From a virus (Duplodnaviria; Heunggongvirae; Uroviricota; Caudoviricetes): a DNA stretch of 32,125 bases. Positions within the stretch are counted from its first letter, which is position 1, and each line of letters starts with the position of its first letter. The position numbers and the translations under genes are program-made. Location: IMG/VR virus record IMGVR_UViG_2703718850_000013; one strand, 5' to 3'. The notes under the pieces were generated by a model. The model was not told the origin of the DNA. It saw only the letters and a program-made list of their open reading frames with translations, and did not search any database. Below are positions 1,627 through 29,916 of this stretch, one piece after another.

Positions 1627-1776
1627 TAAATCCGGTGTTTTAGAACTGATGCTTATTTGGGAAATGTAAACGTTTCTTTAATATGCATCCTTAATGATTT
1701 TGAATCAAGTATGACTTTTTCTATTAAGTCATCAGTAATTCTACAAACTTAATAGGTTTGCAAGATAGGGTATTAA

Positions 1777-2520
1777 TCATTTTTTCTTTAGAGTTATGAA
1801 GTTATCAATTGGATAGTTATCATCATATATATCTTTTATGAAAGATGAAATCTTATTGTGAAGTGAAATTGCTTTTGACTGTATAACGAAAAGCTCACTA
1901 CTAGTTTGATCCCTCACACATTCATCGGCCTGTATAAGTGCAGGAACCTCAGAACTTGCAATATAGAAATCGATACTCAGTCCGTTATATTCATCAATAT
2001 TTAATTTAAGTTCAGCAATAATGTTTTTTGTGTATTCGCTTAAAGCATAATTAGTTCTATCAATAGATTTTAAGGAATTAATAACGGAGTAAGAAGTGAA
2101 GAATAAATCGGAAACAAGAGCATCTGTTTCCTTCATAAACTCATCATGTGAATCTTGGGGTATGGTCTCGTTTTTTAAATGATTGCGATATTTTTTGGAG
2201 AATGTCACTAATTGATGTTTTAAAATTAAGGTTGAAGTACGTACTTTATTAAGATCTTGATAAATTGCTTTCTCAATAACACCATATACTACATCATAAT
2301 GTTTTTGCGACAACCATTCAGGTGCTTTTAGGTATGCTTGGTAGGCTACCCATAGTGTACCTAATGTACCTACAGCACTACATAATGTTCCAATTAAAGT
2401 TACCCACTCCCATCCTTTCGAACCAGAAAATAATATTTTTACACCAACTAATATAGCAATTAGCAGCAGTAATAGTACGGTACTTAGTAGTATTAAATTA
2501 TATTTTTTAATATTAAGCAT
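1777..2520 (-). CDS. 2TM membrane protein, paralog of 3498..4199 (start re-chosen at internal ATG)
   Basis: N-terminus MLNIKKYN...VKILFSGSKGWEW parallels MNIKTIN...VKVLFAGSRGFEW of the 3498..4199 product; two hydrophobic helices then an about 180-aa helical soluble region. The track start at 2568 adds 16 residues absent from the paralog. Confidence 0.6.
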   Translation of the reverse strand: MLNIKKYNLILLSTVLLLLLIAILVGVKILFSGSKGWEWVTLIGTLCSAVGTLGTLWVAYQAYLKAPEWLSQKHYDVVYGVIEKAIYQDLNKVRTSTLILKHQLVTFSKKYRNHLKNETIPQDSHDEFMKETDALVSDLFFTSYSVINSLKSIDRTNYALSEYTKNIIAELKLNIDEYNGLSIDFYIASSEVPALIQADECVRDQTSSELFVIQSKAISLHNKISSFIKDIYDDNYPIDNFITLKKK

Positions 2521-2584
2521 GTTAATCTCATTTCTTAAATAAAAGACATAGATGTATATATGTAGCATTGATGGATATATATTC

Positions 2585-2602
2585 CACTAATCATGATTAG
2601 TG
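2585..2602. promoter_or_regulatory. perfect 18-bp palindrome CACTAATCATGATTAGTG between two minus-strand genes
   Basis: Read directly; lies in the 118-nt gap between the 2639..3460 stop and the 2520 start, so it could be an operator or an attenuator hairpin. Confidence 0.3.
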
Positions 2603-2638
2603 CCTCTCTGATTAATAATGTGATACATGTCCATGTAA

Positions 2639-3460
2639 TTAATAACGGAAACTCCATGTTTTTCTACTCAAAGCTAACTTCTTATGGACAAGTAGAAATA
2701 CAAATATCTCATGGAGATATGGAACCAGAGGTTCTCTTATCCCTTTACTGTGCTCAATGTTGTCAATATCATCTTTAAATTTAGAAATTAGATAATAATA
2801 AGGCTGCAACATATCAATGATTTCAAACACAATATAAGGTGAAACGTTTATTACTTTCCAGGAAAGTATATACTCATCAATTTGGCTTAAAATCGCACCA
2901 TCAAGACCTCTATTCCAGGTGTAACCGTATGCTTTGTATTTGTCGGCCCATAAATTTAATTCTCTTTCTAGTTTTTGTTTTCTAGAATCAGTAATGTGTT
3001 TACGGAAGCAAGAATTAATTATTTCGTTCCACTGTGCTAACGGATCTTTGACTTCTTTTTTGCCTTTTACAATTTTATCAAGATTATAATATCTTGAAGC
3101 ATCAGCGAATTCAGAAAGCATTTCTAATATGAGGTTTTGCTGCCAGTTTAATTCCCACTCCAAATTGGGTAAATGGCTAGCACCATAGCTTGAACAGTTT
3201 TTATGAAGCTCCGCAATATTATGGCTGAATTTTTTAAGTGTACGGAAGTCTGGCTTCTCAAGATTATTTTCGATCATATGATTGAGTATGAAGATAATCT
3301 TAAAAAACCTTTCTATGCCAATTGATAATTGAAAGAAGCTGCTATAGAAGCTACCTTTATCATGTGCTCTACATTTCCGCACAGCAGTAAGCCCACCACC
3401 TATTGAGGTACTGGACAAATAAGACTCTACCATGAATTGATTAAATGACTCCCCAAGCAT
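2639..3460 (-). CDS. hypothetical cytoplasmic protein (273 aa), possible Abi/HEPN-like (weak)
   Basis: ORF with AAGGA Shine-Dalgarno 6 nt upstream of ATG at 3460; no TM segment; an R-x4-H motif (RKCRAH) near the N-terminus is the only HEPN-like hint. Confidence 0.55.
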   Translation of the reverse strand: MLGESFNQFMVESYLSSTSIGGGLTAVRKCRAHDKGSFYSSFFQLSIGIERFFKIIFILNHMIENNLEKPDFRTLKKFSHNIAELHKNCSSYGASHLPNLEWELNWQQNLILEMLSEFADASRYYNLDKIVKGKKEVKDPLAQWNEIINSCFRKHITDSRKQKLERELNLWADKYKAYGYTWNRGLDGAILSQIDEYILSWKVINVSPYIVFEIIDMLQPYYYLISKFKDDIDNIEHSKGIREPLVPYLHEIFVFLLVHKKLALSRKTWSFRY

Positions 3461-3497
3461 AAGCTTTCCTTTTTATTTACATCAATTAACTATAAAT

Positions 3498-4199
3498 TTA
3501 GCTGAACGAATAATCAGTATCAATATTTGTTTCACATAGCTCGTACTGAAATATGGCAGCTAGCTCTCTTTTAACACTTTCAAGATTTTCTGTAGCTGCA
3601 ATTACGTCCTCATGCTTGGGGCAATTAATATGTTTGCATATGGTCAATAGATATATATATTGATTGTCTAAATATGACTGCCTTAACTCTAATATATTTT
3701 TAAATAAATTTTCAAGCCGTTCGCTTAACTTAATATCAAACCTGGCTAGCATTGACCTTGTCGTATATAGCTTAGCAAGTTCAGATAAATCACTTGTGGC
3801 CTTTTTATTAATTTCAGCAGCAACTTTAGATTTTATTTCATCTGTCAGTTCTTTATTATCCTGAACATATTTCCTGATGGAAGCACGAACTATACCATCA
3901 TTATATAAACGTGAATTTATTTCCCATAACTGCATCTCAAATTTCATAGCCAACTGATGTGAGGTAGAAAGGGATTTTAATTTTTTATTCTGAACGAACC
4001 AATTATTTGCTACAAAAGCAGCACAAAGAGCTGTAGACGCAATCACGATATTGCATAACGCACTTGTTAAATCAGCTGCGTTCCCCCATTCAAACCCCCT
4101 GCTACCAGCGAATAGAACCTTAACGAGTACTAAGACTGCTAAAAACAGAAGTACTGCAACAATGCCGACAAGAGTAGAGTTTATAGTTTTTATATTCAT
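3498..4199 (-). CDS. 2TM membrane protein, paralog of 1777..2520
   Basis: Two N-terminal hydrophobic helices then a helical soluble domain; its ATG overlaps the upstream gene's TGA (ATGA at 4196-4199), implying coupling. Confidence 0.6.
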   Translation of the reverse strand: MNIKTINSTLVGIVAVLLFLAVLVLVKVLFAGSRGFEWGNAADLTSALCNIVIASTALCAAFVANNWFVQNKKLKSLSTSHQLAMKFEMQLWEINSRLYNDGIVRASIRKYVQDNKELTDEIKSKVAAEINKKATSDLSELAKLYTTRSMLARFDIKLSERLENLFKNILELRQSYLDNQYIYLLTICKHINCPKHEDVIAATENLESVKRELAAIFQYELCETNIDTDYSFS

Positions 4200-4747
4200 A
4201 ATTTATCAGCTATGTTAACTTCACTATAGAGCAAGCCTTTCAATTTCATCAAAGCTTCCCAAATTTCAGTTGGCTTACCGCTACAATTTCTAAGTAATAT
4301 TTCATCGTTTTCTTGTTTACTCAATGATGAATCATAAAACCGTGCTCCCAATTCTTCAAAATCATTTATAGCATTAGTAACCGTCCAAATCGCATCGTGA
4401 ATTTGTGGTGTCATGTATAATGTATAATCGAGAAGGAAGTCACTTGCTTTACTTTTAATTAAATCCTGTTTATAAAGCATAATTTGATCTAAAAGATCAC
4501 CATCATCATAAAAATTAAAATTTTCTGGAAGATTCAAAGAATTAATAAACTGAATGAAAGGTTTAATAGTTTGCTTTTTTTCTTTTAATTCATCTTCGAG
4601 TATTTTGAATAAAAGTTGTTTTTTTAGTTTTTCGTTCTCATATTTTTTAGTGATTAATTGGCTTGCCAATGTTACACCCGCAGCTATTAATGCACCGCCT
4701 AAAGTACCACCGACTGCAATGAGTTGTGTAATGGTTTCAGCTTCCAT
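4196..4747 (-). CDS. single-pass membrane protein (first gene of the putative four-gene operon; start re-chosen)
   Basis: One N-terminal TM helix (ITQLIAVGGTLGGALIAAGVTLA) then an about 150-aa soluble domain. The track start at 4771 is TTG; the ATG at 4745-4747 (MEAETITQ) is used here. No strong SD, so the start is uncertain. Confidence 0.5.
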   Translation of the reverse strand: MEAETITQLIAVGGTLGGALIAAGVTLASQLITKKYENEKLKKQLLFKILEDELKEKKQTIKPFIQFINSLNLPENFNFYDDGDLLDQIMLYKQDLIKSKASDFLLDYTLYMTPQIHDAIWTVTNAINDFEELGARFYDSSLSKQENDEILLRNCSGKPTEIWEALMKLKGLLYSEVNIADKL

Positions 4748-4818
4748 TTTTTTAGAAATCCAATATATCAAAGTGAAAAATGAACTTTACCATAATAACC
4801 ATTCTGGCGTAAACTATT

Positions 4819-4880
4819 AGCGACACGCCCCACTCATAAAGGGTAGGTTTGTTTAGTTGGTGTGTGTGGGACGTGTCGCT
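4819..4880. repeat. inverted repeat: 9-bp arms AGCGACACG (4819-4827) and CGTGTCGCT (4872-4880) with a 44-nt spacer
   Basis: Read directly; relatively GC-rich arms in an AT-rich intergenic region next to the octamer array. Confidence 0.5.
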
Positions 4881-4896
4881 GAACAGTTGGACTATG

Positions 4897-5024
4897 TTCT
4901 TATGTTCTTATGTTCTTATGTTCTTATGTTCTTATGTTCTTATGTTCTTATGTTCTTATGTTCTTATGTTCTTATGTTCTTATGTTCTTATGTTCTTATG
5001 TTCTTATGTTCTTATGTTCTTATG
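4897..5024. repeat. perfect tandem array, 16 x TTCTTATG (CATAAGAA on the minus strand)
   Basis: 128 nt of uninterrupted 8-nt periodicity read directly; intergenic between the HNH gene stop (5053) and the start of the 4747 operon. Confidence 0.95.
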
Positions 5025-5052
5025 TCTATATTTCTCAACCTTTAGTTGAAAA

Positions 5053-5856
5053 TCATTTAGGATAACTAACACAAGTATGACCAGAAATTACCATCATAAA
5101 TTGATTATTCTTTAAACCTACAAAGGGAAATGAAGCATAATCAATATTAGCCGTTGTCATATTAAAATGAAGAGATTGATCATATTGAGTCATTTCAGTT
5201 GCATGAATAGGAAATGTTCCTTGCTCCTTCAGTGTAACCAAAAAAGATATTGGGAAAAAATGTAAGCAAGAACATATACTATGATGTCCATTATTGTAGA
5301 ATGTAACTGACTGAGCAGTAATTTGTTTTCTGAATGGATAAAACCAATAGTAAATATTATGAGTTGCCCCAATGTCTGGATTCCTGCCTAATACAAAATT
5401 TCTCAATGGAGTATAAAAAGGACTATCAACAATAGGCTTCATACAATCTTTTACTGAAGTTGCAGCCAGAAGGTGTCCAATCATTGCTCTTAGAAATTTA
5501 TCCGCATCAAATTTTAATGAAATATAATTTTTGTAAAAGAACTTACCACTAAAATAATCATTTAACTTTTCGATGAATTCAGTTGTAACACGGCCTATTT
5601 CTGCATCCATTGATCCTAAAATATTCGAGTTACAATTGTGACAAATGGTACGAAAAGTTGTCCCGCTTTTTGCTTTAATTGGTGGTACTCGAGTATTAGA
5701 GAAATACTCAGAAATCGTTTTTTGTAACATAGGTGAAGGTTTAGATGCACATTGCGGGGGAACATGGTCTTTTTTTAATTTGCCAAAATTACCACATATT
5801 ACACAATATCCATTAGCTATTTTTACATGGTCAATTCTTTCAGAGACAAATTTCAT
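5053..5856 (-). CDS. HNH-endonuclease-domain protein with about 200-aa C-terminal extension of unknown function
   Basis: N-terminal CVICG-x7-DHVPP ... TICHNCN matches the HNH zinc-finger/His-Me pattern (CxxCG...DH..P...CxxCN). Confidence 0.6.
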   Translation of the reverse strand: MKFVSERIDHVKIANGYCVICGNFGKLKKDHVPPQCASKPSPMLQKTISEYFSNTRVPPIKAKSGTTFRTICHNCNSNILGSMDAEIGRVTTEFIEKLNDYFSGKFFYKNYISLKFDADKFLRAMIGHLLAATSVKDCMKPIVDSPFYTPLRNFVLGRNPDIGATHNIYYWFYPFRKQITAQSVTFYNNGHHSICSCLHFFPISFLVTLKEQGTFPIHATEMTQYDQSLHFNMTTANIDYASFPFVGLKNNQFMMVISGHTCVSYPK

Positions 5857-6179
5857 TCTGCAATCTCAAAAGTTAACATCACCAAAATATAGAGCATTCA
5901 AACACAATGTTCAATATGATTTTACTCTAACCAGTGTGCTATTTTTTATGCAAACTTATACATGGACGAATACTCAAACTGCGATAATAAACTGAAAATA
6001 TCGATATAAGAATTGATTTTATGAGTAATCATCATTATAGCCTATACCATGTAGCATTAACACTTTACCACCAAATAGAACATACATATACTATTGATTA
6101 TCGACCTAGGGTAAGTTTATCAATTATGGTACGATAGAATCTAAATAATCTATAGTAGCAAGAGGCTTAGGGGGAGATA

Positions 6180-6854
6180 ATGGAGTGGAAGAAAGAGCTT
6201 AGAGCAAAGTTTGAAAGAGACGAACTTAGAAGATTAATTTCTAATGTAAACTGGATTATATTCAAACCTAAAATAAAAAAGCAATTAGAAATACTATCAA
6301 CCCAATTATCAGGAGAGCATATAAGATTTAATATAATTGATATGCAAGATGAACCAGATGGTTATGGTTTTGATTGCCTGACATTTCAGATCGCTGATCG
6401 TATGACTGGAAATATGCGGCAGGAAAAAACTACCGAAAGCATAAAGTTTAATCATCATTGGCAAAAAGGAGCCGCACTTTCAATTACATATAGTGCGACG
6501 GGGGCTGTGCATATAATTCTTTTTCCGTCTACTTCAGATGATTCATTAGCAACACATGATTCCTTGATTGTCCATCATTCATATAACGTTAAACACATAA
6601 CACCAAAAAAAATAGAGAAAGCAGTAAAGAATTTACTTCATTATCACCGTGTTACAGGTGTTTTACACAAGGCCGCATTAAAAGATTTAATTTTAATCCG
6701 CTTACTGAAAATTAAGATGTTTTTTATTCAGTATAACGACAAAGAGAACAAGTTTAGAAGAGTTACAGCATTATATATACCTACATTAAGTCTTATAGTT
6801 TCGTTGGCTGCCGCAGTAGCATCTATTCTGGCATTAGTATCTGTTAAATCATGA
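6180..6854 (+). CDS. tail-anchored membrane protein (224 aa), unknown function
   Basis: Strong SD (GGGGGAG) before the ATG; single C-terminal hydrophobic helix (LSLIVSLAAAVASILALVSV); the only plus-strand gene in the island, convergent with the nucleotidyltransferase gene. Confidence 0.55.
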   Translation: MEWKKELRAKFERDELRRLISNVNWIIFKPKIKKQLEILSTQLSGEHIRFNIIDMQDEPDGYGFDCLTFQIADRMTGNMRQEKTTESIKFNHHWQKGAALSITYSATGAVHIILFPSTSDDSLATHDSLIVHHSYNVKHITPKKIEKAVKNLLHYHRVTGVLHKAALKDLILIRLLKIKMFFIQYNDKENKFRRVTALYIPTLSLIVSLAAAVASILALVSVKS

Positions 6855-6860
6855 TGATTA

Positions 6861-6890
6861 TAAGCCAGCAACTAACTGGCTTATAAATTA
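6861..6890 (+). terminator. putative intrinsic terminator after 6180..6854
   Basis: Stem TAAGCCAG / CTGGCTTA with 7-nt loop, followed by a T/A-rich tail, 7 nt after the stop codon. Confidence 0.45.
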
Positions 6891-7099
6891 GAAATTGGAA
6901 ACTATCTCTTCTCACAAAACTGCTATCTTTAGCGATAAGGGAATGTAATCTCCTGATACTGATGGTAGAGGAGCGGGTCATACAATCTTAGCAATCTCAT
7001 TTAGCTGTACGACGGTGGAATGTTTCAACTGTACTCAATTCTTACAAGTAAAAATATCGAGAATGATTTTTTGGATTCAAGCAAAGACAATGAGCTGTA

Positions 7100-7127
7100 C
7101 CCCCTTATAATTAGTAATATAAGGGGG
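7100..7127. terminator. hairpin CCCCCTTATA-loop-TATAAGGGGG between convergent genes
   Basis: 10-bp perfect stem with 8-nt loop, 5 nt downstream of the 7133..7909 stop; possibly bidirectional. Confidence 0.45.
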
Positions 7128-7132
7128 CAAGA

Positions 7133-7909
7133 TTATTTTATGGGTAAAATTTTCTTTATTTCATTTTCGGCGGCAAAATGATTGTTTAACTGCTCATAAT
7201 ATTTTGACATCATAACTGAATTTTTTAGACGCTGAATCTTATCTTTTTTCCATTGTGCGAGATAATAGGAACCTGAAAGTTGTTCTACAGCAGAGTAAAA
7301 ATATTCTTTAAGGGTAGAGCACCAAAAATAGTTAAAGCTAACAATATCTTTTTCAAGTTGATACGACTCAAAGACATAACCTGCATTGGCATTCCAATAT
7401 TTCATTATGCGAATAAGAGGCTTAATTAAATTGTTATTATTTTTATTGCAATTAGTTAAATCAGTATTGAACGCATTGGGATCGGTATTCATCCAACGGT
7501 TCAAAAAATCCTGGTTGGAAGGGATTTGATAACCAAATAAAATATTATGAGATGCAGGGACAAGCTCGAAAGTAATATGATTAAGGTTCAATTGAATAGT
7601 AGGGTGGCTTTGCTTTATTTCAGATGTACGATAGTAATAATTTACAAAACCCCTTAGCTTGTTTAGGTAGGTCTGAGGCTGATATATTACATTTTTGAAT
7701 ACAACCATATAATCAACATCAGAAGAAGGATCATAGCTACGAGGAAGCATTGTATTACGTGAATATGAGCCAAATACAAAATGACTAACAAGTTCACCAG
7801 CAAAATAACCATTCAGTCTGTTTTTTATGGTTGCAATTGAATTCGTTATTGTAATATCTCTTTGATAAGCATTGCTTTTAATAGACTCAAGATAGGTACT
7901 GACTGTCAT
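7133..7909 (-). CDS. pol-beta-type nucleotidyltransferase, SMODS/CD-NTase-like
   Basis: FGSYSRNT...SDVDY (hG[GS]-x9-13-DxD) plus a later acidic residue (FELVP); AAGGAA SD 6 nt upstream; start lies 2 nt after the upstream gene's stop. Confidence 0.6.
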   Translation of the reverse strand: MTVSTYLESIKSNAYQRDITITNSIATIKNRLNGYFAGELVSHFVFGSYSRNTMLPRSYDPSSDVDYMVVFKNVIYQPQTYLNKLRGFVNYYYRTSEIKQSHPTIQLNLNHITFELVPASHNILFGYQIPSNQDFLNRWMNTDPNAFNTDLTNCNKNNNNLIKPLIRIMKYWNANAGYVFESYQLEKDIVSFNYFWCSTLKEYFYSAVEQLSGSYYLAQWKKDKIQRLKNSVMMSKYYEQLNNHFAAENEIKKILPIK

Positions 7910-7911
7910 GT

Positions 7912-8415
7912 TTATTCCTTGTCAATATTATACTTAGTAAAGCCTTGGTTAACATCTCTTTGAGTTTTCTCATAAGCCCACCGAGGAATATTTGGCGAAC
8001 TTGAATTAAGTTGATTGCGTCGATCAGAGTAACTCGTAAGTTTTTCAATCAAAGTTTTATCAGTAAAATCAAAATTAGAAGTCAATATTTCCCTAAATAT
8101 TCTAACTTCATTCTTTAATTTATTATATTCATTTGCTGCTGATTTATGAAGTGCAGCACGCTTACTTGGGTTAAGAGACGTATTTAATGCAGTTAGAATT
8201 GTAGCAGTTATGGAAATAGCTACAACAGCATTGGCTGTACTCTTGATTGCGGCAATACCACTCAAAGCGGTTAAGATTGCTAATGGTACACCGAACCACA
8301 GATTCAGCTTATCCCATCTATCAGAAACATTATAATGAGATTTAGAAGAGTACAGAGCGTCCTCTTCTATACGATGACACTCAGAAATGACTGTTTGGAT
8401 GAGCTTCTGATTCAT
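7912..8415 (-). CDS. 2TM membrane protein, SLATT-like effector candidate (start re-chosen)
   Basis: About 40-aa N-terminal region, two TM helices (LWFGVPLAILTALSGIAAI; AVVAISITATILTAL), helical C-terminal region; tightly coupled to the nucleotidyltransferase gene. ATG at 8413-8415 has a GGAG SD; the track start is a GTG two codons upstream. Confidence 0.55.
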   Translation of the reverse strand: MNQKLIQTVISECHRIEEDALYSSKSHYNVSDRWDKLNLWFGVPLAILTALSGIAAIKSTANAVVAISITATILTALNTSLNPSKRAALHKSAANEYNKLKNEVRIFREILTSNFDFTDKTLIEKLTSYSDRRNQLNSSSPNIPRWAYEKTQRDVNQGFTKYNIDKE

Positions 8416-8579
8416 AAACACTCCAACAAATCCGATTCCCTAACAGTATAACATGGTAGGGTTAATAAATACTATAGGTACTTCCCTCTGAATAGACACA
8501 ATCGGGAAGTTTCGCCGCGAACTATTTTTTTTGCATATTAAATATTTTAAATAACACAAACAAAACCTGGATAAACAAA

Positions 8580-9101
8580 TTGAACGATAGATATACAACA
8601 AACGAAATTGCAGAACGTATGGGAGTTAATGACAGTACTGTAAGCCGTGAATGGGCAAAACGTGGAATGCCACACCCAAAGAAAGCAAGTAAAAAAGAAA
8701 TAGATCAATGGATACTAATTAATATTATCCAACCATTGCGAAATACTGATGTAAAAGAACAGATTGAAAAAGAGAAATTACGCAAGATATCACTTGAAGC
8801 AGATTTAGTTGAGATTGAATTAAATATCAGTACTGAAAAGGTATTGAGTACTGATTATGTAACTCAAACACTAACTGGTTATTTTGCAGCACTACGCGGA
8901 GTACTAAGAAGTATTCCGGCATCTATCTATGTAGAACTATTTGAAAGTGAAGATGCGGATACATTGCGGATAAAACTAGAAGAAAGGATTGATGAGAAAC
9001 TAAGGGAATTAGGATCATATGAGTACGAAGAACAGCCAGAAGAAGATGATGAAGATTCTGAACCAGAGTCTGAAATCAATATTACCCCCACCGAAGATTA
9101 A
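8580..9101 (+). CDS. terminase small subunit, lambda Nu1-like
   Basis: N-terminal HTH TNEIAERMGVNDSTVSREWAKRGMP resembles Nu1 (…IRTIQNWQEQGMP) and EKEKLRK resembles Nu1 ENEKLRR; acidic C-terminus. Track start is TTG with no clear SD, so the true start is uncertain. Confidence 0.6.
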   Translation: MNDRYTTNEIAERMGVNDSTVSREWAKRGMPHPKKASKKEIDQWILINIIQPLRNTDVKEQIEKEKLRKISLEADLVEIELNISTEKVLSTDYVTQTLTGYFAALRGVLRSIPASIYVELFESEDADTLRIKLEERIDEKLRELGSYEYEEQPEEDDEDSEPESEINITPTED

Positions 9102-10938
9102 ACCATCTGAATGGTGTGAACAATATACTGTATTTCCAGATGGACCACTGGCACAACAAAAAACTAAATTATTTTCATTTCAAGTAGAACCCCTAAACGC
9201 CACAGTAGATCCATCAGTACAGAAGATCTGTTTAATGAGTAGTGCACAATTACTCAAGACAACAATACTACAAAATGCAATGCTTTACAGGATGGCAAAT
9301 AAACCCTCCCATATGATATTTGCGGGTAGTAGTGGTAGTACTGTGAAAAAGTTCCGTACTGGTAAATGGATGGATACTATTAATGCGTGTCCAAACCTTC
9401 AAGCATTAATCACTGACAAATCAGATAAGAATGCAGTAAACGATCTACACACTCAACAGAACGTTGACGGTACTAAGACATACTTTGTTAACCTCAATTC
9501 TAGCCAGTCCCTACGCTCGCTTACAGTTCCTGCAATCTTCATTGATGAATTATCAGGTGTAGATCCAGAACAAGATGAGGGCAACCCCCTATCACTCATA
9601 GAACAGCGTGCAACTCAGTTTGGTAAGAACTCCCTGATCGTGATGGCCTCCACACCATTAGTACAGGACGATATGATCTGCCAGCAATGGGAACTCTCAG
9701 ACCAGAGACATTTTCATGTCGTGTGTCCACATTGTGATCATGACCATATTTTAGAATGGGAGAATATAAAGTTTGAATGGGTGAAGTTCAACGAACGACG
9801 TAATGCACCAGAACCCACTACAGCACGCCTACACTGTCCAGGATGTGATGAAGTAATCACTGAAGGGCAACGTGCACGGATGGTTGCAAAAGGTTACTGG
9901 AAAGCACACAGACTGCATGTGATGGGTTTCAGGGGATACCATGTTAATAGACTATATTCACCGATTACTACTATTGAGAAGATTGTTGAAGACTTTAAGA
10001 ACTCATGGATAAACTTTGAAGAACAATCTTTCTATAATAACGTACTCGGTTTACCGTGGGTAGATAAGAATAATATTAAAGAAGATCTTACAGTACTGGA
10101 AAACTTACGCGACTTTGATTTAGATGTAAAACATATTCCAGATAATGCACTTGGTATTGTACTGGCATGTGACCAACAGATAGACCGCTTAGAATGTAGT
10201 ACTATTGCATTTGATGAAAAGAATATATGGGTTCTGGACCACCGTATGTTTTATGGTGTCGATTGTACTAAGTATGAAGATAAGGCATATACTGAACTAC
10301 TTAATTATAGTAAGAGTATATTTAAAACCACTTCAGGTAGAAAAGTACCAGTACTGAGATCCTTTATTGATAGCTCAAACGGATCTGCAACCAGTTCCAT
10401 ATATCGCTTTTGTTCTTCCAGTGGGGGACGATGGCATGCAATTAAGGGTGCAAACACACAGACTGGTCCCATCACGAAGGATTCCACAACGGCAGGACAT
10501 CAACTGGTTAATATTAATACTCAAGTACTGAAGCACCAGGTTAAGAAGTTATTACGACAGGCATGTGAAGGGGGAGAGTATAGTACTAATATACACTTCA
10601 GTCATTCCCTTGTCGATGATTACTTCCTCCAACTTACAGCAGAAAAACTAGTACGAAAAGGTTCAGTGATGGTATGGGAGAATCCAAATGGAGAGCGTAA
10701 CGAATGTCTCGATACGCTCGTCTACTCATTAGCAGCGATTGATCACAAGATACAGGCACTTGGTGCACAACCGTATAGGAAGTTGCGAGAGTATAGAGCT
10801 AAACAAAAAGAACTAAATACTAAAGTAGAAGAATCCATAAAAACTAAAGCAGAACAACAACCAGTACAGAAAGAGAAGCAGAAATCAAAACCTAAGAAAA
10901 AAGGACTTTCAGCACTTAATAATCGTAACTGGTTTTAA
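9019..10938 (+). CDS. terminase large subunit, GpA-like
   Basis: 639 aa, immediately after TerS, with cysteine/histidine clusters (CPHCDHDH; CPGCDE); AGGA SD before ATG 9019; overlaps TerS by 83 nt (alternative ATGs at 9046/9049). Confidence 0.8.
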   Translation: MSTKNSQKKMMKILNQSLKSILPPPKIKPSEWCEQYTVFPDGPLAQQKTKLFSFQVEPLNATVDPSVQKICLMSSAQLLKTTILQNAMLYRMANKPSHMIFAGSSGSTVKKFRTGKWMDTINACPNLQALITDKSDKNAVNDLHTQQNVDGTKTYFVNLNSSQSLRSLTVPAIFIDELSGVDPEQDEGNPLSLIEQRATQFGKNSLIVMASTPLVQDDMICQQWELSDQRHFHVVCPHCDHDHILEWENIKFEWVKFNERRNAPEPTTARLHCPGCDEVITEGQRARMVAKGYWKAHRLHVMGFRGYHVNRLYSPITTIEKIVEDFKNSWINFEEQSFYNNVLGLPWVDKNNIKEDLTVLENLRDFDLDVKHIPDNALGIVLACDQQIDRLECSTIAFDEKNIWVLDHRMFYGVDCTKYEDKAYTELLNYSKSIFKTTSGRKVPVLRSFIDSSNGSATSSIYRFCSSSGGRWHAIKGANTQTGPITKDSTTAGHQLVNINTQVLKHQVKKLLRQACEGGEYSTNIHFSHSLVDDYFLQLTAEKLVRKGSVMVWENPNGERNECLDTLVYSLAAIDHKIQALGAQPYRKLREYRAKQKELNTKVEESIKTKAEQQPVQKEKQKSKPKKKGLSALNNRNWF

Positions 10939-11436: not shown

Positions 11437-12429
11437 ATGTTTAATTTTAATTTTAGAAAGGCAAAGGAACAGCCAAAAGAAGAACCAAAACTATATATTG
11501 GTAAGGCAAAAATACGTACTGAACCAGTACTTGGTAATTTAGGTATTGAAACCAAACGTTCCATTTCTTCCATCGGTAACGGTAACGCAGCCGCACAACT
11601 TGGTACATTTGGTGCAGTTGGTAAGAGTGGCTCGATCAATGCCGTAATTAACCGTGTATTGAACACGGCAGTACTACAAAGTCGCCAGCTTAGTATGAGT
11701 AACCCAATTCATAAGAAGTATATTGCACAGAATGCCAGTAGTGTATGTGGTGCAAATGGTATTACGTATCGTCCATGTGTTCACGTTGCTGAAGATGACA
11801 ATGTTAATAATGATATTAATAAACGTCTCGCCGATGCGTTCTACTCATGGTGTGAAGACCCCGCACGTTTTTCCCTAAATGGAAAACTTGAAATGTCCAA
11901 ATTCCAGTCACTGGTAGAGAAGACACGTTCAATTGATGGTAGTTGTTTTATTCGTATCCATCCTGGTATGAAGATTGAAGTACTAGACAGTACTGTAATT
12001 GATACGAAAGGTAATCAATGGCTAAGTAATGGTAACTATCGTTCAAATGGTATTGAGTTTGAAAAAGGCACTGGTAAACCCGTTGCTTACTTTCTAACAC
12101 AATATGACCCCGTATCGTACTCAGTTAGTACTGAAGCAGAACGTGTACCCGCAGAAGAGATCCTTCACTTATTCAGTACTGACTATCCAGAACAGCAACG
12201 CGGCATTCCCGATATATTTTGCGGTACTGGACTACTGGCAGACCTGGATAAATTCATGAGGGCGTCAATCAAGACGCGACAATTAGCAGCGGAAAGCATG
12301 GGTTTTATCACGAATGCGTCACGTGATGCATCATTTGAAGATATTGATGATGATGACGATTCTGATGTAGATGAATACCAGGTTGCACGTATGGAGGGTG
12401 GAGTACTGTTAGAACTTCGTGAGGGTTAA
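11437..12429 (+). CDS. portal protein, N-terminal segment (ends at an in-frame TAA)
   Basis: Position after TerL; weak resemblance to lambda gpB from memory; followed in the same frame by 12433..12948. Confidence 0.6.
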   Translation: MFNFNFRKAKEQPKEEPKLYIGKAKIRTEPVLGNLGIETKRSISSIGNGNAAAQLGTFGAVGKSGSINAVINRVLNTAVLQSRQLSMSNPIHKKYIAQNASSVCGANGITYRPCVHVAEDDNVNNDINKRLADAFYSWCEDPARFSLNGKLEMSKFQSLVEKTRSIDGSCFIRIHPGMKIEVLDSTVIDTKGNQWLSNGNYRSNGIEFEKGTGKPVAYFLTQYDPVSYSVSTEAERVPAEEILHLFSTDYPEQQRGIPDIFCGTGLLADLDKFMRASIKTRQLAAESMGFITNASRDASFEDIDDDDDSDVDEYQVARMEGGVLLELREG

Positions 12430-12898
12430 GATGTGAAGTCACTCAGTCCATCACAAACATTCGACGCACTACAGGAATTTCTAGATAACCAGTTGATTTT
12501 CATAGGGATGTCACTCGATCTTACACCACAGACGTTAACAGGTTCGACCGCAGGGGCATCATTCAGTGCCTCGAAGTTAACAGACAAAATTCAGCAAAAT
12601 ACATTTCTTGCAAAACAAAACAACCTGGTTAAGTCAGTACTTCAACCTTTGTATATTAAGTGGCTCAAGAATGAAATGCTAAATAACCCGATGTTGAAGG
12701 ATTTGCCATTTAGTAAATTTACTGAACTAACTGAATGTAATTTCATTCCACAACGTCATATTAGTCTAGACCCACTGAAAGATTTACAGACTGAGATTCT
12801 CGCAATGGAAAATGGATTAAAGAGTAAAGAACAAATAATTTCTGAGATGGGCTATTCACCAGTACTAACCCATGAGCAGATTACTAAGGAAGAAACAG

Positions 12899-15014
<2,116 letters not shown>

Positions 15015-15455: not shown

Positions 15456-17138
15456 ATGGCTTTTATTACTAACAACACAAGTGTATGGATTAACACCGAC
15501 ACATTAAACAGTGACCCCAAATCGAAGGGATTTAAAGAAGTACCAGAATTAAGCGGGTTCCCTTCATTCGGTCACAGTACTGCAACCCTTGCTATTGAAA
15601 CATATGACTCTGAATACATCGAAAAAGTAGCAGGTGATAGCACATATGGTGATGTCACTATTACGGTTAACTGGGTTCCTGCTAAACATAAGTTTCTTGA
15701 TGACATCGTAAAAAGTCGCCAATTAGTACAAATGAAGGTAGAGATCCCCGATGAAGGACAGAATGACCTTACGGTTAACTATGCACTTTATAATGGTTAT
15801 CTGGCTTCTGTATCCACCAGTGGTGATTATGATTCTGTTACTTCCCGTTCCTACGTATTCACCCCAAACGAACAACTTTCTTCGGGTATTCTTGACAGTA
15901 CGATAGTCCCTCTAAATCGCGGAGACTGGGGCGTAGGTGCAAACGGTATTGAGTTTCCAAGTTATCAGGGGCGTGACGGTAATGCTTTTATTAAGATCCC
16001 TGGTGCAGGTTCACCAACAGGGACAGATGTACTCGGTATTAATAACCTTGATTCGAACTTTGGTACACAATTGGTTATCAGTAAGACAGGTACGCCAATA
16101 ATTAACGTGCGTAACTATGGTGCATCTATGGGGGCATGGTACAAGGTCTATACCAGTGCTGATAAACCTACACTGACAGAACTGGGTGCTGCATCAAGTG
16201 CATCCCTTGCAGACTACGTACCGATTACCCGTACTATCAATAGCAAACCACTAACTGCTAATATTACACTACTGGCTTCTGATATCGCTGATGTATACAG
16301 TAAGACGTATATAGATCAGAACGTAGTCCCAAAAGTATTCCAGTTAAACGGTCATGCACTATCCGGTACGGCATTAAACTTAGTTGCCGCAGATATTCTT
16401 GATGTGTATTCACAGACTCAGGTTGATACTTCATTTGTTAAAAAAACAACTACTGTTAACGGTTTAAGTCTTTCCCAGAATATAACACTGACAGCCGCAC
16501 AACTCCCAGATATGGCAAGTATTGTTTTTACTAATAACACATATGTACCAAAAACATACTTAATCAACAATAAGCCATTATCAGGAACTAACATTCAATT
16601 AGTTGCTGCTGATATTCCTGATGTGTACTCACGTACCCAGTCAAATGATCTATTTGCACTACGTATCACCACTATTAACGGGTATGCTCTTAACAGTAAT
16701 ATAGTACTGAATTTTGATGATGTAGGAACATATTCAAAGAAACAGATCGATGACAAAGACAAGGTTCTGAAGGAAGATATTGATACGAAGGTAACAATTG
16801 TAGATGATATTCTTAAACTAAATACCCTTGTAAATAATTCATTAGAAATAGATTTGAGTGATAGTAAAACTACATTCACCGTGACTCTATCACAACCAAC
16901 GTCAAACTTCTCTGTACTAAATGCAAGTGGTAATGACAAAAAGAGTCAAACATTTCAGGTGCTTATTAAGCAGGGTACAGGGGCAAATAAAATATCCTGG
17001 CCTACAAACATTTTATGGTCTTATGGGCGTGTTCCAGTATTAACCTTTACAAAAGATTCTACTGATGTATTTCAGTTTGTCACAGTAGACGGGGGTAGTA
17101 CTTGGTACGGCTCTCTACTAATGGCAGATATGAAATAA
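15456..17138 (+). CDS. tail-tube-domain protein with C-terminal tail-fibre-like tandem repeats
   Basis: N-terminal region (…ITVNWVP…YALYNGYLASVSTSGDYDSVTSRSYVFTPNE) is homologous to the 158-aa protein at 20048 (…LSVNWKPG…YSIVNGYISSDVVGGDFDAVATREFVMTITGE); the C-terminus carries about five 35-aa repeats (xNGxxLSxNIxLxAADIxDVYS…). Confidence 0.6.
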   Translation: MAFITNNTSVWINTDTLNSDPKSKGFKEVPELSGFPSFGHSTATLAIETYDSEYIEKVAGDSTYGDVTITVNWVPAKHKFLDDIVKSRQLVQMKVEIPDEGQNDLTVNYALYNGYLASVSTSGDYDSVTSRSYVFTPNEQLSSGILDSTIVPLNRGDWGVGANGIEFPSYQGRDGNAFIKIPGAGSPTGTDVLGINNLDSNFGTQLVISKTGTPIINVRNYGASMGAWYKVYTSADKPTLTELGAASSASLADYVPITRTINSKPLTANITLLASDIADVYSKTYIDQNVVPKVFQLNGHALSGTALNLVAADILDVYSQTQVDTSFVKKTTTVNGLSLSQNITLTAAQLPDMASIVFTNNTYVPKTYLINNKPLSGTNIQLVAADIPDVYSRTQSNDLFALRITTINGYALNSNIVLNFDDVGTYSKKQIDDKDKVLKEDIDTKVTIVDDILKLNTLVNNSLEIDLSDSKTTFTVTLSQPTSNFSVLNASGNDKKSQTFQVLIKQGTGANKISWPTNILWSYGRVPVLTFTKDSTDVFQFVTVDGGSTWYGSLLMADMK

Positions 17139-28985: not shown

Positions 28986-29010
28986 GGGGCATTAATGCCC
29001 CTTTTTATTT
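28986..29010. terminator. bidirectional intrinsic terminator GGGGCATTAATGCCCC + T-tract
   Basis: Perfect 16-bp palindrome flanked by an A-run upstream and a T-run downstream, between convergent genes; it overlaps the endolysin stop codon. Confidence 0.7.
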
Positions 29011-29451
29011 GTTAATTAAATCTTTAATCATCTGGTTAAGTCTATTCGGTGTCTGACGATACCATAAACTATCCTTTGCCTGTTTAATTGCTTCTGTGTA
29101 ATTATTGTTTAGTAATGCAATGATCATCTTTTTAAACTTCTTAGTACCACTTAAGCCTAACTGAAAAATCATGATAACCATGAAGTCTTCCCAGTCCTGT
29201 GGTAATTTCAAATTTAAGGTAGATAAATTACGTTTGGCAATGCCAATATCTTTATCCAGTAGTTTATCTGCTTCATCCTCGTTAATGCCGTTAGGGAACG
29301 TCTCAGAGGCTTTTAGAAGATGTCCATATCCAATCGTATCTTTGTTCTCACTACATTTATACACCCAGAATTTACCATTGCGATAATAACCCATATGGGC
29401 CTGGTATTCTTTCGTACCTTCATATATTTTTAATTTTTCTATTAAACACAT
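29005..29451 (-). CDS. endolysin, GH24 T4-lysozyme-like (start corrected)
   Basis: DTIGYGHLL and SLWYRQTPNRLNQMI align with T4 lysozyme TIGIGHLL and SRWYNQTPNRAKRVI; the ATG at 29449-29451 has a GAGG SD, whereas the track start at 29505 adds 18 residues with no counterpart. Confidence 0.85.
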   Translation of the reverse strand: MCLIEKLKIYEGTKEYQAHMGYYRNGKFWVYKCSENKDTIGYGHLLKASETFPNGINEDEADKLLDKDIGIAKRNLSTLNLKLPQDWEDFMVIMIFQLGLSGTKKFKKMIIALLNNNYTEAIKQAKDSLWYRQTPNRLNQMIKDLINK

Positions 29452-29487
29452 AAATACCTCATAAACTATTATTTGTGGGGTATTTAT

Positions 29488-29916
29488 ATGAAATGGACAA
29501 TGCATGATCCTGAGACATGGGATTATGAAGATATAAATGACGGGAGGTATGCAGCTTTTGTATATATGATCACTTTTGACGATGGTTCATATTATTTTGG
29601 TGTAAAGTCAATCTTCAAAAGTATTCGGGATGTAAAGAAGCTGAAGCCAACTACAAAGGAATCCAACTGGGAGAATTATTATTCTTCCTCGAAGAAGGTG
29701 CAGGCAATGGTTGATTCAGGCCTGAACTATGAAAAACAAATACTATGGTGTTTCAGAACGACGAATGAAGCTGAGCAAGTAGAAGCGGCATTGATTCTAT
29801 TCTTAGGACAGCAATCAAATAATTTAAATCTTGCCGTGATGTGCAAAGTACGGCTTGGTAAAAATCGTTCTGAAACATTCAAAGTACTGCAACAATTATT
29901 AGAGAGGTTATCATGA
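29488..29916 (+). CDS. hypothetical protein, possible stand-alone GIY-YIG nuclease domain
   Basis: FVY-x10-YFG then Arg, Glu and Asn at roughly GIY-YIG spacing; weak. Start set at ATG 29488 (track start 29473 is TTG). Confidence 0.35.
   Translation: MKWTMHDPETWDYEDINDGRYAAFVYMITFDDGSYYFGVKSIFKSIRDVKKLKPTTKESNWENYYSSSKKVQAMVDSGLNYEKQILWCFRTTNEAEQVEAALILFLGQQSNNLNLAVMCKVRLGKNRSETFKVLQQLLERLS

What the first reader, a model, noticed from the sequence alone, without database searches (positions are those of the whole stretch)
7133..8415. Coupled nucleotidyltransferase + 2TM protein pair (SMODS/SLATT-like) carried by the phage
A 2TM protein gene is followed 2 nt later by a gene whose product has the pol-beta NTase signature (GS...DVD plus a later acidic residue). 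This arrangement is the one reported in comparative-genomic work on nucleotide-second-messenger conflict systems, where SMODS synthetases pair with SLATT 2TM effectors. Such pairs are only predicted as defence modules; one encoded within a phage is a good experimental candidate.
Basis: partly seen in the sequence, partly recalled or inferred. Interest (0 to 1): 0.7.

Follow-up and report, generated by a model that had tools for sequence, protein, structure and literature searches.

The report
Prophage-borne type I CBASS defence pair

Summary
On the minus strand, a 167-aa two-transmembrane protein (7912-8415) is followed after a 2-nt spacer by a 258-aa nucleotidyltransferase (7133-7909) with G47-S48, D64-V-D66 and E115.

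Profile searches assign the pair to SMODS/CD-NTase (Pfam 4.9e-31; PADLOC CBASS cyclase 3.5e-113, full length) and SLATT_4 (NCBIfam 2e-41; PADLOC 2TM effector 2.3e-70). The predicted cyclase fold matches only CD-NTases among the top PDB hits.

The SLATT-then-SMODS pair recurs in Kluyvera, Serratia, Photobacterium and inside a type I restriction-modification operon. Both genes are under strong purifying selection (dN/dS 0.06-0.08). This is a minimal type I CBASS.

RefSeq already annotates it as SMODS/SLATT in 88 of 5,426 complete E. coli genomes. Comparable two-gene CBASS operons with SLATT effectors have been shown experimentally to block phages, so "only predicted" is out of date.

"Carried by the phage" needs qualifying:
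- Only one complete genome (strain N61) holds the whole roughly 35-kb element.
- The window copy has a premature stop in its portal gene, and N61 has an IS3 in a tail gene.
- The other 87 genomes keep one IS-bounded remnant with CBASS intact.

Still unknown: the nucleotide signal, the trigger, and how a SLATT protein with no recognisable nucleotide-binding domain is gated.

The parts
7912..8415 (-). CBASS effector gene: 167-aa SLATT_4-type two-transmembrane protein, first gene of the operon
   Evidence: Matches NCBIfam SLATT_4 (NF033632) at 2e-41, 141.4 bits against a cut-off of 55, and PADLOC 2TM effector model PDLC00712 at 2.3e-70 over 3-167 of 167. The Pfam SLATT_4 hit is only 21.3 bits, below the gathering score of 27. 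Hydrophobic helices lie at about residues 38-58 and 61-81. The AF2 model is all-helical, pLDDT 89.7. Invariant N-terminal motif E12..I16-E-E-D19..S23.K25.H27..W34, plus R105, L136 and D165, across 29 sequences.
7133..7909 (-). CBASS cyclase gene: 258-aa SMODS / CD-NTase with no AGS-C or other fused domain, second gene of the operon
   Evidence: Pfam SMODS 4.9e-31, model 1-164 of 164. PADLOC cyclase PDLC00769 3.5e-113 over 1-256. G47, S48, D64 and D66 invariant, E115 near-invariant. AF2 pLDDT 91.3, pTM 0.87. The Foldseek top 50 PDB hits are all CD-NTases (CdnD, CdnB, CdnE, CdnG, CdnC, DncV) at 10-18% identity.
7907..7920 (-). Gene junction: AAGGA ribosome-binding site (7920-7916) inside the end of the SLATT gene, stop TAA (7914-7912), 2-nt spacer (7911-7910), cyclase ATG (7909-7907)
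   Evidence: Read directly from the sequence. In homologous loci the two genes overlap by 4 nt. Translational coupling is inferred from this arrangement.
8416..8579 (.). 164-bp divergent intergenic region between the CBASS operon (leftward) and the small terminase gene (rightward). It holds the SLATT ribosome-binding site GGAG (8424-8421) and presumably the CBASS promoter; by analogy with lambda-type phages it may also hold the cos site.
   Evidence: The ribosome-binding site was read from the sequence. The consensus promoter scan found no sigma-70-like site in this interval. The promoter and cos assignments are inference only.
7102..7129 (-). 12-bp hairpin immediately after the cyclase stop codon; probable end of the operon and shared with the convergent gene 6180-6854
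   Evidence: RNA fold -19.3 kcal/mol, z = -4.2 against 200 shuffles. There is no U-tract on the minus strand, so terminator function is not shown, and the terminator scan did not call it.
8580..10938 (+). Context, not part of the system: small terminase (8580-9101) and GpA-type large terminase (9019-10938) of the host prophage
   Evidence: phrog_57 terminase small subunit 8.1e-20. Pfam GpA_ATPase 3.3e-52 and GpA_nuclease 1.3e-45.

Best explanation
This is a minimal (type I) CBASS anti-phage operon carried as accessory cargo of a prophage-like element.

Shown here:
- The two genes encode a CD-NTase/SMODS-family nucleotidyltransferase with an intact catalytic triad and a SLATT_4-family two-transmembrane protein.
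- They form a tightly coupled operon with no Cap2/Cap3, HORMA/TRIP13 or other accessory genes.
- The pair is conserved as a unit and is under purifying selection.

Inferred from what is established for CBASS:
- The cyclase is kept inactive in uninfected cells.
- Infection by a competing phage activates it. In other type I systems the trigger is linked to late or virion-assembly products, or to a phage RNA.
- The active cyclase makes a cyclic di- or tri-nucleotide from NTPs.
- The signal binds the cytoplasmic helices of the SLATT protein. The invariant N-terminal R-I-E-E-D..S.K.H.N helix and the C-terminal R..LN..SP.IP segment are the candidate binding sites.
- The effector then oligomerises or opens in the inner membrane. 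This dissipates membrane integrity or potential and stops phage production before progeny are released, through abortive infection or growth arrest.

In a lysogen the module would protect the host, and the resident element with it, from superinfecting phages. The identity of the nucleotide, the trigger and the gating mechanism are not known for this subfamily.
For: Family assignment:
- SMODS at 4.9e-31 with full model coverage.
- PADLOC CBASS cyclase at 3.5e-113 and 2TM effector at 2.3e-70, both end to end.
- NCBIfam SLATT_4 at 141 bits against a cut-off of 55.

Catalytic residues: G47, S48, D64 and D66 are invariant and E115 is near-invariant across 34 homologues.

Fold: the AF2 model has pLDDT 91.3, and the top 50 PDB matches are all CD-NTases.

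Effector topology: two central hydrophobic helices flanked by conserved cytoplasmic helices.

Operon: 2-nt spacer with the ribosome-binding site inside the upstream gene.

The pairing is conserved in unrelated contexts:
- Serratia prophage next to terS/terL.
- Kluyvera.
- A second E. coli lineage.
- A serine-recombinase island in Enterobacterales.
- A Photobacterium integrase island.
- Between hsdS and hsdR of a type I restriction-modification operon next to AbiE.

Selection: dN/dS is 0.06-0.08 for both genes.

Experimental precedent: two-gene type I CBASS operons with 2TM/4TM/SLATT effectors restrict phages by at least 100- to 10,000-fold (10.1101/2023.05.21.541620). A CBASS transmembrane effector, Cap14, is a nucleotide-gated ion channel (PMC10402079).
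Against: - Nothing here is experimental for this operon.
- The Pfam SLATT_4 hit is below the gathering score (21.3 against 27).
- The only NCBIfam cyclase model hit, CBASS_cyclase_b, is far below its equivalog cut-off (94.6 against 200). The cyclase therefore belongs to a subfamily without a curated equivalog.
- The effector has no recognisable nucleotide-binding domain (no SAVED, STING or CARF), and no solved structure resembles it. Direct gating by the nucleotide is an assumption.
- The promoter scan found no consensus promoter upstream of the operon.
- Recent work on another membrane-acting effector, CapV, argues that defence need not kill the cell (PMC13160051). 'Abortive infection' may be too strong a term.
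Confidence: 0.9

Rival explanations
1. The nucleotidyltransferase is an unrelated pol-beta enzyme, such as an antibiotic nucleotidyltransferase or the MNT half of an MNT/HEPN toxin-antitoxin pair, and the 2TM gene is an unrelated neighbour.
For: There are weak sub-threshold hits to the generic NTP_transf_2 model (20.2 bits against 21) and the Polbeta model (17.5 against 26.9).
Against: These are the expected shadow hits of any pol-beta fold. SMODS scores 108.6 bits and the PADLOC cyclase model 375 bits, both over the full length. The fold search returns only CD-NTases. No HEPN partner is present, and the 2TM partner is conserved with the enzyme in all six other locus types examined.
Confidence: 0.01
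2. The pair is an inactive relic of a decayed prophage with no current function.
For: The window's prophage copy has a nonsense codon in its portal gene, and N61 has an IS3 in a tail gene. In 87 genomes only a remnant flanked by IS3 and IS100 survives.
Against: Both ORFs are intact in every copy inspected. Catalytic and motif residues are conserved. dN/dS is 0.06-0.08 with synonymous sites near saturation. In strain APEC E19035 a neighbouring gene is truncated while the CBASS genes are not.
Confidence: 0.05
3. The module mainly serves the mobile element rather than host immunity. It might act as an addiction (post-segregational killing) module, or as a phage-controlled membrane switch used in the element's own life cycle.
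For: It occupies a fixed position next to terS in at least four related serine-recombinase elements. It is much better conserved between E. coli and Kluyvera (77% and 84%) than the adjacent terS (45%) and terL fragment (36%).
Against: The same pair also sits in non-phage defence contexts, namely inside a restriction-modification operon beside AbiE and in an integrase island. It persists after the phage genes are lost. A lysozyme gene lies about 21 kb away at 29005-29505. Homologous system types are demonstrated defence systems.
Confidence: 0.07
4. This is the same system but with a non-lethal output. The SLATT protein would be a selective nucleotide-gated ion channel that reversibly arrests the cell, rather than a membrane-rupturing pore that kills it.
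For: Cap14, another CBASS transmembrane effector, is a 2',3'-cGAMP-gated chloride channel (PMC10402079). CapV-based CBASS was reported to stop phage while preserving viability (PMC13160051). The SLATT protein is small (167 aa), with only two membrane helices per subunit.
Against: There are no data for any SLATT_4 effector. [quoted passage not shown]
Confidence: 0.3

Closest known systems
Type I CBASS operons with SLATT effectors tested in E. coli (EcCdnF04-SLATT6 and EcCdnF05-SLATT6; Richmond-Buccola et al., bioRxiv 10.1101/2023.05.21.541620)
   Same: Both are two-gene operons from E. coli with a CD-NTase plus a SLATT-family membrane effector and no accessory Cap genes. That class is proven to restrict phages from five families.
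   Different: The tested cyclases carry a C-terminal AGS-C Ig-like domain and pair with SLATT6. The cyclase here is a bare 258-aa enzyme paired with SLATT_4. AGS-C-fused relatives of this cyclase exist at about 50% identity. I could not obtain the tested sequences, so the identity to them is unknown.
SMODS and SLATT families as defined by comparative genomics (Burroughs et al. 2015, Nucleic Acids Res; recalled from memory, not read here), now Pfam PF18144 and PF18186 and NCBIfam NF033632
   Same: This is exactly the predicted pairing of a second-messenger synthetase with a 2TM effector, in the same gene order and with the same domain limits.
   Different: Nothing substantive. This is a textbook instance.
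CdnB-Cap14 type I CBASS (PMC10402079)
   Same: A two-gene operon with a membrane effector, where ion flux across the membrane is the output.
   Different: Cap14 senses 2',3'-cGAMP through a C-terminal SAVED domain. The SLATT_4 protein has no SAVED or other known nucleotide-binding domain.
Structurally characterised CD-NTases (PaCdnD 6P8J/6P82, BfCdnB 7LJO, RmCdnE 6E0K, BdCdnG 7LJN, EcCdnC 6P80, DncV 4XJ1, BcCdnD 9SA4)
   Same: Same fold, with TM-scores normalised to the query of 0.6-0.79 and the same catalytic triad.
   Different: Identity is only 10-18%, and this enzyme is shorter (258 aa against 270-370). No solved representative is close, so the product cannot be inferred by homology.
Defence hotspots in temperate phages and satellites (P2/P4 hotspots, PMC9122126) and prophage-encoded defence systems in general (PMC9090908)
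   Same: An anti-phage system carried in a low-GC variable accessory region of a prophage (31-34% GC against 38-43% in the structural genes), next to the packaging genes.
   Different: The host element is a different, uncultured phage type. It has a large serine recombinase, and its GpA-type terminase is only 34% identical to the best phage-database hit. Within it the CBASS position is fixed while the other cargo genes vary.

Membership tests
CD-NTase / SMODS (CBASS cyclase) | Profile match to SMODS (PF18144) above the curated threshold over the whole domain | tested here: met
   108.6 bits against a gathering score of 26.5; model positions 1-164 of 164. PADLOC cyclase PDLC00769 at 3.5e-113.
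CD-NTase / SMODS (CBASS cyclase) | Pol-beta catalytic signature: G-S, [D/E]-x-D and a third acidic residue on the following beta-strand | tested here: met
   G47-S48, D64-V-D66 and E115; invariant or at least 90% conserved in 34 homologues.
CD-NTase / SMODS (CBASS cyclase) | cGAS/DncV-like bilobed fold: nucleotidyltransferase core plus C-terminal helical lobe | tested here: met
   AF2 pLDDT 91.3. The Foldseek top 50 PDB hits are all CD-NTases, with E-values down to 1.6e-11.
CD-NTase / SMODS (CBASS cyclase) | Synthesis of a cyclic oligonucleotide | not testable with these tools
   Needs biochemistry.
NCBIfam NF041117 CBASS_cyclase_b (equivalog) | Score at or above the 200-bit equivalog cut-off | tested here: not met
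   94.6 bits. The cyclase is related to this equivalog group but is not a member of it.
CD-NTase clade F (Whiteley nomenclature) | Phylogenetic placement within clade F of the reference CD-NTase tree | tested here: inconclusive
   The reference tree and tables were not obtainable.

Indirect evidence comes from three points:
- The family has branches with and without AGS-C. Among type I CBASS cyclases, the source reports mixed branches (some with, some without the domain) only for clades F and G.
- SLATT effectors were tested with clade F cyclases.
- No solved structure is close, and solved structures from clades A-E and G are all 10-18% identical.

Clade F is the likeliest placement but is unproven.
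SLATT (SLATT_4) | Profile match above the curated threshold | tested here: met
   NCBIfam NF033632 SLATT_4 at 141.4 bits against 55. Pfam PF18186, by contrast, gives only 21.3 bits against 27, which is below threshold. PADLOC 2TM effector at 2.3e-70.
SLATT (SLATT_4) | Two central transmembrane helices forming a hairpin, flanked by soluble helices, with no enzymatic domain | tested here: met
   Hydropathy peaks centred near residues 48 and 70. AF2 helices 3-57, 61-81, 83-111, 119-139 and 145-156.
SLATT (SLATT_4) | Nucleotide-triggered membrane perturbation | not testable with these tools
   No solved structure or characterised homologue was found.
Type I CBASS | Cyclase and effector adjacent on one strand, with no Cap2/Cap3 (type II), HORMA/TRIP13 (type III) or type IV accessory genes | tested here: met
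   2-nt spacer between the genes. Flanking ORFs have no PADLOC, Pfam or NCBIfam hits to Cap proteins.
Type I CBASS | Pairing conserved across genomes and found in defence or mobile-element contexts | tested here: met
   this includes a copy between hsdS and hsdR next to AbiE.
Type I CBASS | Protection against phage that depends on the cyclase active site and the effector | not testable with these tools
   This is shown for other type I operons but not for this one. No paper mentioning this operon or E. coli 55989 CBASS was found.
Phage-encoded defence system | Located inside a mobile element that encodes virion and packaging genes | tested here: met
   In E. coli N61 the element lies between yggS and yggR. 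It has a large serine recombinase at one end and terS, terL, portal, capsid, tail and lysozyme genes.
Phage-encoded defence system | The carrier is an intact, viable phage | tested here: not met
   The portal gene has CAA->TAA at 12427, giving a stop at codon 331 of 503 in the window. N61 has an IS3 in the 964-aa gene. No repressor or replication genes were recognised. The other 87 genomes hold only a remnant.

The most novel reading that the evidence does not exclude
The bare 258-aa cyclase belongs to a CD-NTase clade, probably F, for which no in vitro product has been reported. It signals to a SLATT_4 protein that lacks any known nucleotide-binding domain. If so, the pair would use an uncharacterised nucleotide and a new ligand-gating mode, in which the conserved R-I-E-E-D..S.K.H.N cytoplasmic helix acts as the receptor.

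In addition, the module is a position-fixed, long-term component of one lineage of serine-recombinase prophages. It is kept intact while the phage around it decays, which would make this a documented case of a phage defence gene being domesticated by the host.
Probability: 0.3. Interest if true: 0.5.

Novelty: already known. Interest (0 to 1): 0.25.

Why it matters
As a discovery it adds little. Standard tools (PADLOC, DefenseFinder-type rules, NCBI PGAP) already recognise this operon, and the class is experimentally validated.

Its practical value is as a compact 1.3-kb, E. coli-native model for two open questions in CBASS biology:
- What nucleotide do the short, AGS-C-less cyclases of this branch make, and what activates them?
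- How is a SLATT effector of only 167 residues gated?

The genomic picture also gives a clean natural example of defence cargo outliving its phage. The same module is found in a near-complete prophage, in decaying prophages and in an IS-bounded remnant spread through 87 E. coli genomes.

Tried and rejected
- **Phage database.** A megablast of 5000-9100 against 50,697 phage records found nothing. The large terminase has only distant phage relatives, at most 34% identity. The carrier therefore has no cultured relative.
- **Clade assignment.** The Whiteley 2019 and Millman 2020 papers and their tables are not held. The bioRxiv paper on type I CBASS has no supplement held. Searches for 'CdnF' found nothing, and searches for the RefSeq accessions found no paper that mentions them. 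The clade is left as an inference.
- **AGS-C-fused homologues.** I hoped these were the tested E. coli CdnF04/05 enzymes. They come from marine symbionts instead.
- **Solved structure for the SLATT protein.** None was found by sequence or by fold; the best Foldseek E-value was 0.087, on a designed helical bundle.
- **Anti-CBASS genes or Cap regulators in the window.** Pfam, PHROG, NCBIfam and PADLOC scans of flanking and small late ORFs found none.
- **Promoter and terminator scan.** No consensus promoter was found upstream of the operon. The post-cyclase hairpin was not called as a terminator because it lacks a T-run.
- **Neighbouring genes as a known defence system.** I tested the four-gene operon 1777-4771 and ORFs 5053-5856 and 6180-6854. 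No library matched them except an unannotated PHROG family for 5053-5856. The 273-aa protein has only 7 homologous clusters, so their role stays open.
- **Counting the 87 E. coli remnants as independent events.** Rejected. In the roughly 30 records listed in each, all but one or two have the same end points (window 1670 and about 9470), and the two loci inspected in detail have the same IS3 and IS100 flanks. This is one event that spread.
Full report
**1. What is in the sequence**

Both genes lie on the minus strand.

- The upstream gene runs 8415->7912 and encodes 167 aa. Its ATG is preceded by GGAG at 8424-8421. An in-frame GTG at 8421 would add two residues, but NCBI's annotation of identical copies uses the ATG.
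- Its TAA stop (7914-7912) is followed by two bases (AC) and then the ATG of the second gene, which runs 7909->7133 and encodes 258 aa.
- An AAGGA ribosome-binding site (7920-7916) sits inside the end of the first gene.
- A 12-bp hairpin (7102-7129; -19.3 kcal/mol, z = -4.2) follows the second stop codon.

The only correction is that the gene order holds on the minus strand.

**2. Family assignment**

The 258-aa protein:
- It matches Pfam SMODS over the entire model (4.9e-31; 108.6 bits against a gathering score of 26.5). The generic NTP_transf_2 and Polbeta models fall below threshold.
- A PADLOC CBASS cyclase model aligns end to end (PDLC00769, 3.5e-113), and 21 further PADLOC cyclase models also hit.
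- NCBIfam's CBASS_cyclase_b equivalog is hit at 94.6 bits, well under its 200-bit cut-off. The enzyme is a CBASS cyclase, but of a subfamily with no curated equivalog model.

The 167-aa protein:
- It passes NCBIfam SLATT_4 (141.4 bits against 55).
- It matches PADLOC 2TM effector model PDLC00712 (2.3e-70).
- Pfam's own SLATT_4 model gives only 21.3 bits against 27.

The 34-sequence cyclase alignment goes down to 46% identity. In it G47, S48, D64 and D66 are invariant, E115 is at least 90% conserved, and a K-Y-W-N motif at 170-173 is also invariant.

The 29-sequence effector alignment shows an invariant cytoplasmic N-terminal motif, E12..I16-E-E-D19..S23.K25.H27..W34. It also shows G42 at the start of the first membrane helix and conserved C-terminal positions R105, R133, L136, N137 and S140.

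**3. Structure**

- AlphaFold2 models the cyclase with confidence (pLDDT 91.3, pTM 0.87).
- Foldseek against the PDB returns only CD-NTases in the top 50: P. aeruginosa CdnD, B. fragilis CdnB, CdnE enzymes, B. diazoefficiens CdnG, E. coli CdnC and DncV. Query TM-scores are about 0.6-0.79, but identity is only 10-18%.
- By sequence, the closest solved chain is B. cereus CdnD (9SA4, E = 6e-6).
- The effector model (pLDDT 89.7) is all-helical. A long helix 3-57 runs from the conserved N-terminal motif into the first membrane span, a second span covers 61-81, and three further helices follow. This agrees with the hydropathy profile.
- No solved structure resembles the effector, by sequence or by fold.

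**4. The pair is a unit under selection**

In every related locus I retrieved, a SLATT_4-like gene immediately precedes the SMODS gene, usually overlapping it by 4 nt:

| Locus | Identity to the window pair | Context |
|---|---|---|
| Serratia liquefaciens | 53% | Next to Nu1-like terS, GpA terL and portal |
| Kluyvera | 77% cyclase, 84% effector | Serine recombinase; terL cut by an IS |
| Second E. coli lineage | 78% cyclase, 84% effector | Same phage type |
| Enterobacterales island | 59% cyclase, 61% effector | Roughly 10-kb serine-recombinase island with no virion genes |
| Photobacterium kishitanii | 49% | Beside a tyrosine integrase |
| Genome CP019046 | 49% | Between hsdS and hsdR of a type I restriction-modification operon, next to AbiE |

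Nei-Gojobori estimates give dN/dS of 0.06-0.08 for both genes, with synonymous sites close to saturation. The genes are therefore functional and co-inherited, in contexts typical of defence systems.

**5. What it is and how it probably works**

The anatomy is that of a type I (minimal) CBASS: cyclase plus effector, with no Cap2/Cap3, HORMA/TRIP13 or other accessory genes. The flanking ORFs have no hits in PADLOC, Pfam or NCBIfam.

By analogy with characterised CBASS, the proposed sequence is:
1. The cyclase is silent until a phage infects.
2. It then makes a cyclic oligonucleotide.
3. The nucleotide activates the membrane effector, and phage production stops.

These steps are inferred, not shown here. 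The precedents are as follows.
- Fifteen two-gene type I operons were tested in E. coli. Each gave more than 100-fold protection against at least one phage, and EcCdnF04-SLATT6 gave at least 10,000-fold protection against five phage families. Escape mutations mapped to virion-assembly proteins (10.1101/2023.05.21.541620).
- A staphylococcal type I cyclase is activated by an RNA transcribed from phage terminase genes (PMC10686824, abstract).
- Cap14 is a cGAMP-gated chloride channel (PMC10402079).
- CapV-based CBASS may stop phage without killing the cell (PMC13160051).

Whether the SLATT_4 protein forms a lethal pore or a selective channel is open. I put about 0.3 on the non-lethal channel variant.

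**6. Which clade**

I could not place the cyclase on the reference tree because the sources are not held. Three indirect points favour clade F:
- Close homologues (49-55% identity) exist both with and without a C-terminal AGS-C domain. Among type I CBASS cyclases, the source reports mixed branches (some with, some without the domain) only for clades F and G.
- The SLATT-type effectors that were tested are partnered with clade F enzymes.
- Solved structures from clades A-E and G are all equally distant.

The same paper notes that no in vitro product has been seen for any clade F enzyme. This assignment is an inference and is marked inconclusive.

**7. 'Carried by the phage'**

The window is a prophage-like element. 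It has a GpA-type large terminase, a small terminase and head-tail joining protein, a portal (annotated in N61), a capsid, a tail-tip fibre and a lysozyme.

In E. coli N61 the whole element, about 35 kb, lies between yggS and yggR with a large serine recombinase at one end. CBASS sits at the edge of a low-GC accessory block (31-34% against 38-43% in the structural genes). It is transcribed divergently from terS.

The element is not demonstrably a live phage:
- The window copy carries CAA->TAA at 12427, which truncates the portal at codon 331 of 503.
- N61 carries an IS3 inside the 964-aa gene 17102-19996.
- No repressor or replication genes were recognised.
- The terminase has no close relative among 50,697 phage records.

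Of 5,426 complete E. coli genomes, 88 contain the CBASS pair at 99% identity or more, but only N61 has the phage. The other 87, including strain 55989, hold the same fragment (window about 1670-9470). It comprises six hypothetical genes, CBASS, terS and the first 164 codons (495 nt) of terL. It is bounded by IS3 and IS100 within a genomic island. Because the end points are identical, this is one decay event that has spread, not 87 independent ones.

Additional decayed carriers with intact CBASS are:
- the Kluyvera locus, where terL is cut by an IS;
- possibly the second E. coli lineage, where terL and portal are split into fragments, although assembly errors cannot be excluded there.

The module is also much better conserved between E. 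coli and Kluyvera (77% and 84%) than the adjoining terS (45%) and terL fragment (36%). Against Serratia, all are about 44-53%. This suggests both long association with this phage lineage and some module exchange within it.

**8. Novelty and score**

The exact proteins are in public databases. The cyclase occurs on 64 contigs and the effector on at least 1,000. RefSeq names them 'SMODS domain-containing nucleotidyltransferase' and 'SLATT domain-containing protein'. PADLOC models cover them end to end, and DefenseFinder's type I CBASS rule is exactly cyclase plus effector (PMC9090908). Prophage-borne defence systems are well documented (PMC9122126, PMC9090908).

I found no paper that has tested this particular operon. 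The finding is therefore a correct identification of an already known kind of system.

What remains of interest is the uncharacterised biochemistry of this branch (signal, trigger and SLATT gating) and the pattern of defence cargo outliving its phage. Interest is 0.25.

Noticed in passing
window 4893-5025: A perfect octanucleotide tandem repeat, (TATGTTCT) x 16.6. It lies between the stop of ORF 5053-5856 (-) and the start of the four-gene minus-strand operon 4771->1777. E. coli N61 has 88 nt fewer here, exactly 11 units. Copy number therefore varies between strains, and this could be a phase-variable promoter or 5' region.
   Followed up: partly
window 12427-12429 (portal gene 11437-12948): The window has TAA where E. 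coli N61 has CAA. This truncates the portal protein at codon 331 of 503, so the window's prophage copy is probably unable to make heads.
   Followed up: yes
window about 19498 (gene 17102-19996); L001 32530-33692: In strain N61, the only complete E. coli genome with the full element, an IS3 interrupts the 964-aa gene. That gene is intact in the window.
   Followed up: yes
window 1777-4771 (minus strand): A four-gene operon encoding proteins of 191 aa (one TM helix), 233 aa (two TM), 273 aa (soluble) and 263 aa (two TM). The 233- and 263-aa proteins have similar N-terminal membrane hairpins.

No gene hits Pfam, PADLOC, NCBIfam or PHROGs. The 273-aa protein has only 7 homologous clusters, all named ones from Enterobacterales and all in accessory regions of mobile elements.

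The operon is retained with CBASS in the 87-genome remnant. It is a candidate unknown membrane-acting accessory or defence module.
   Followed up: partly
window 5053-5856 (minus strand): A 267-aa protein with an HNH-like motif (C-x2-C ... K-D-H-V-P-P ... C-H-N-C-N) at its N-terminus. It matches the unannotated phage family phrog_21495 at 1.3e-94, and matches nothing in Pfam, PADLOC or NCBIfam.
   Followed up: partly
window 1670-9470; L002 and L018: This segment, and only this segment, of the element is present in 87 complete E. coli genomes. It is flanked by IS3 on the left and by IS100 inserted into terL on the right, inside a genomic island that in strain 55989 also carries tet(B).
   Followed up: yes
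window 29005-29916: A phage lysozyme gene on the minus strand (29005-29505) overlaps the start of a SegE-like GIY-YIG homing endonuclease gene on the plus strand (29473-29916).
   Followed up: no
window 12872-14713: The 613-aa capsid protein carries the Phage_capsid domain only in residues 348-609. The N-terminal 350 or so residues are unassigned and may be a fused scaffold or protease. This is relevant because type I CBASS escape mutations map to such proteins.
   Followed up: no
window 31163-32125 (minus strand): A 320-aa ORF runs to the very end of the window and has no family hit. N61 annotates only 226 aa here. It lies at the attR-proximal edge of the element, next to yggR.
   Followed up: no
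L007 5498-6825 (CP019046): A homologous SLATT-SMODS pair is inserted between the hsdS and hsdR genes of a type I restriction-modification operon, next to AbiEi/AbiEii. This is one defence system nested inside another.
   Followed up: no
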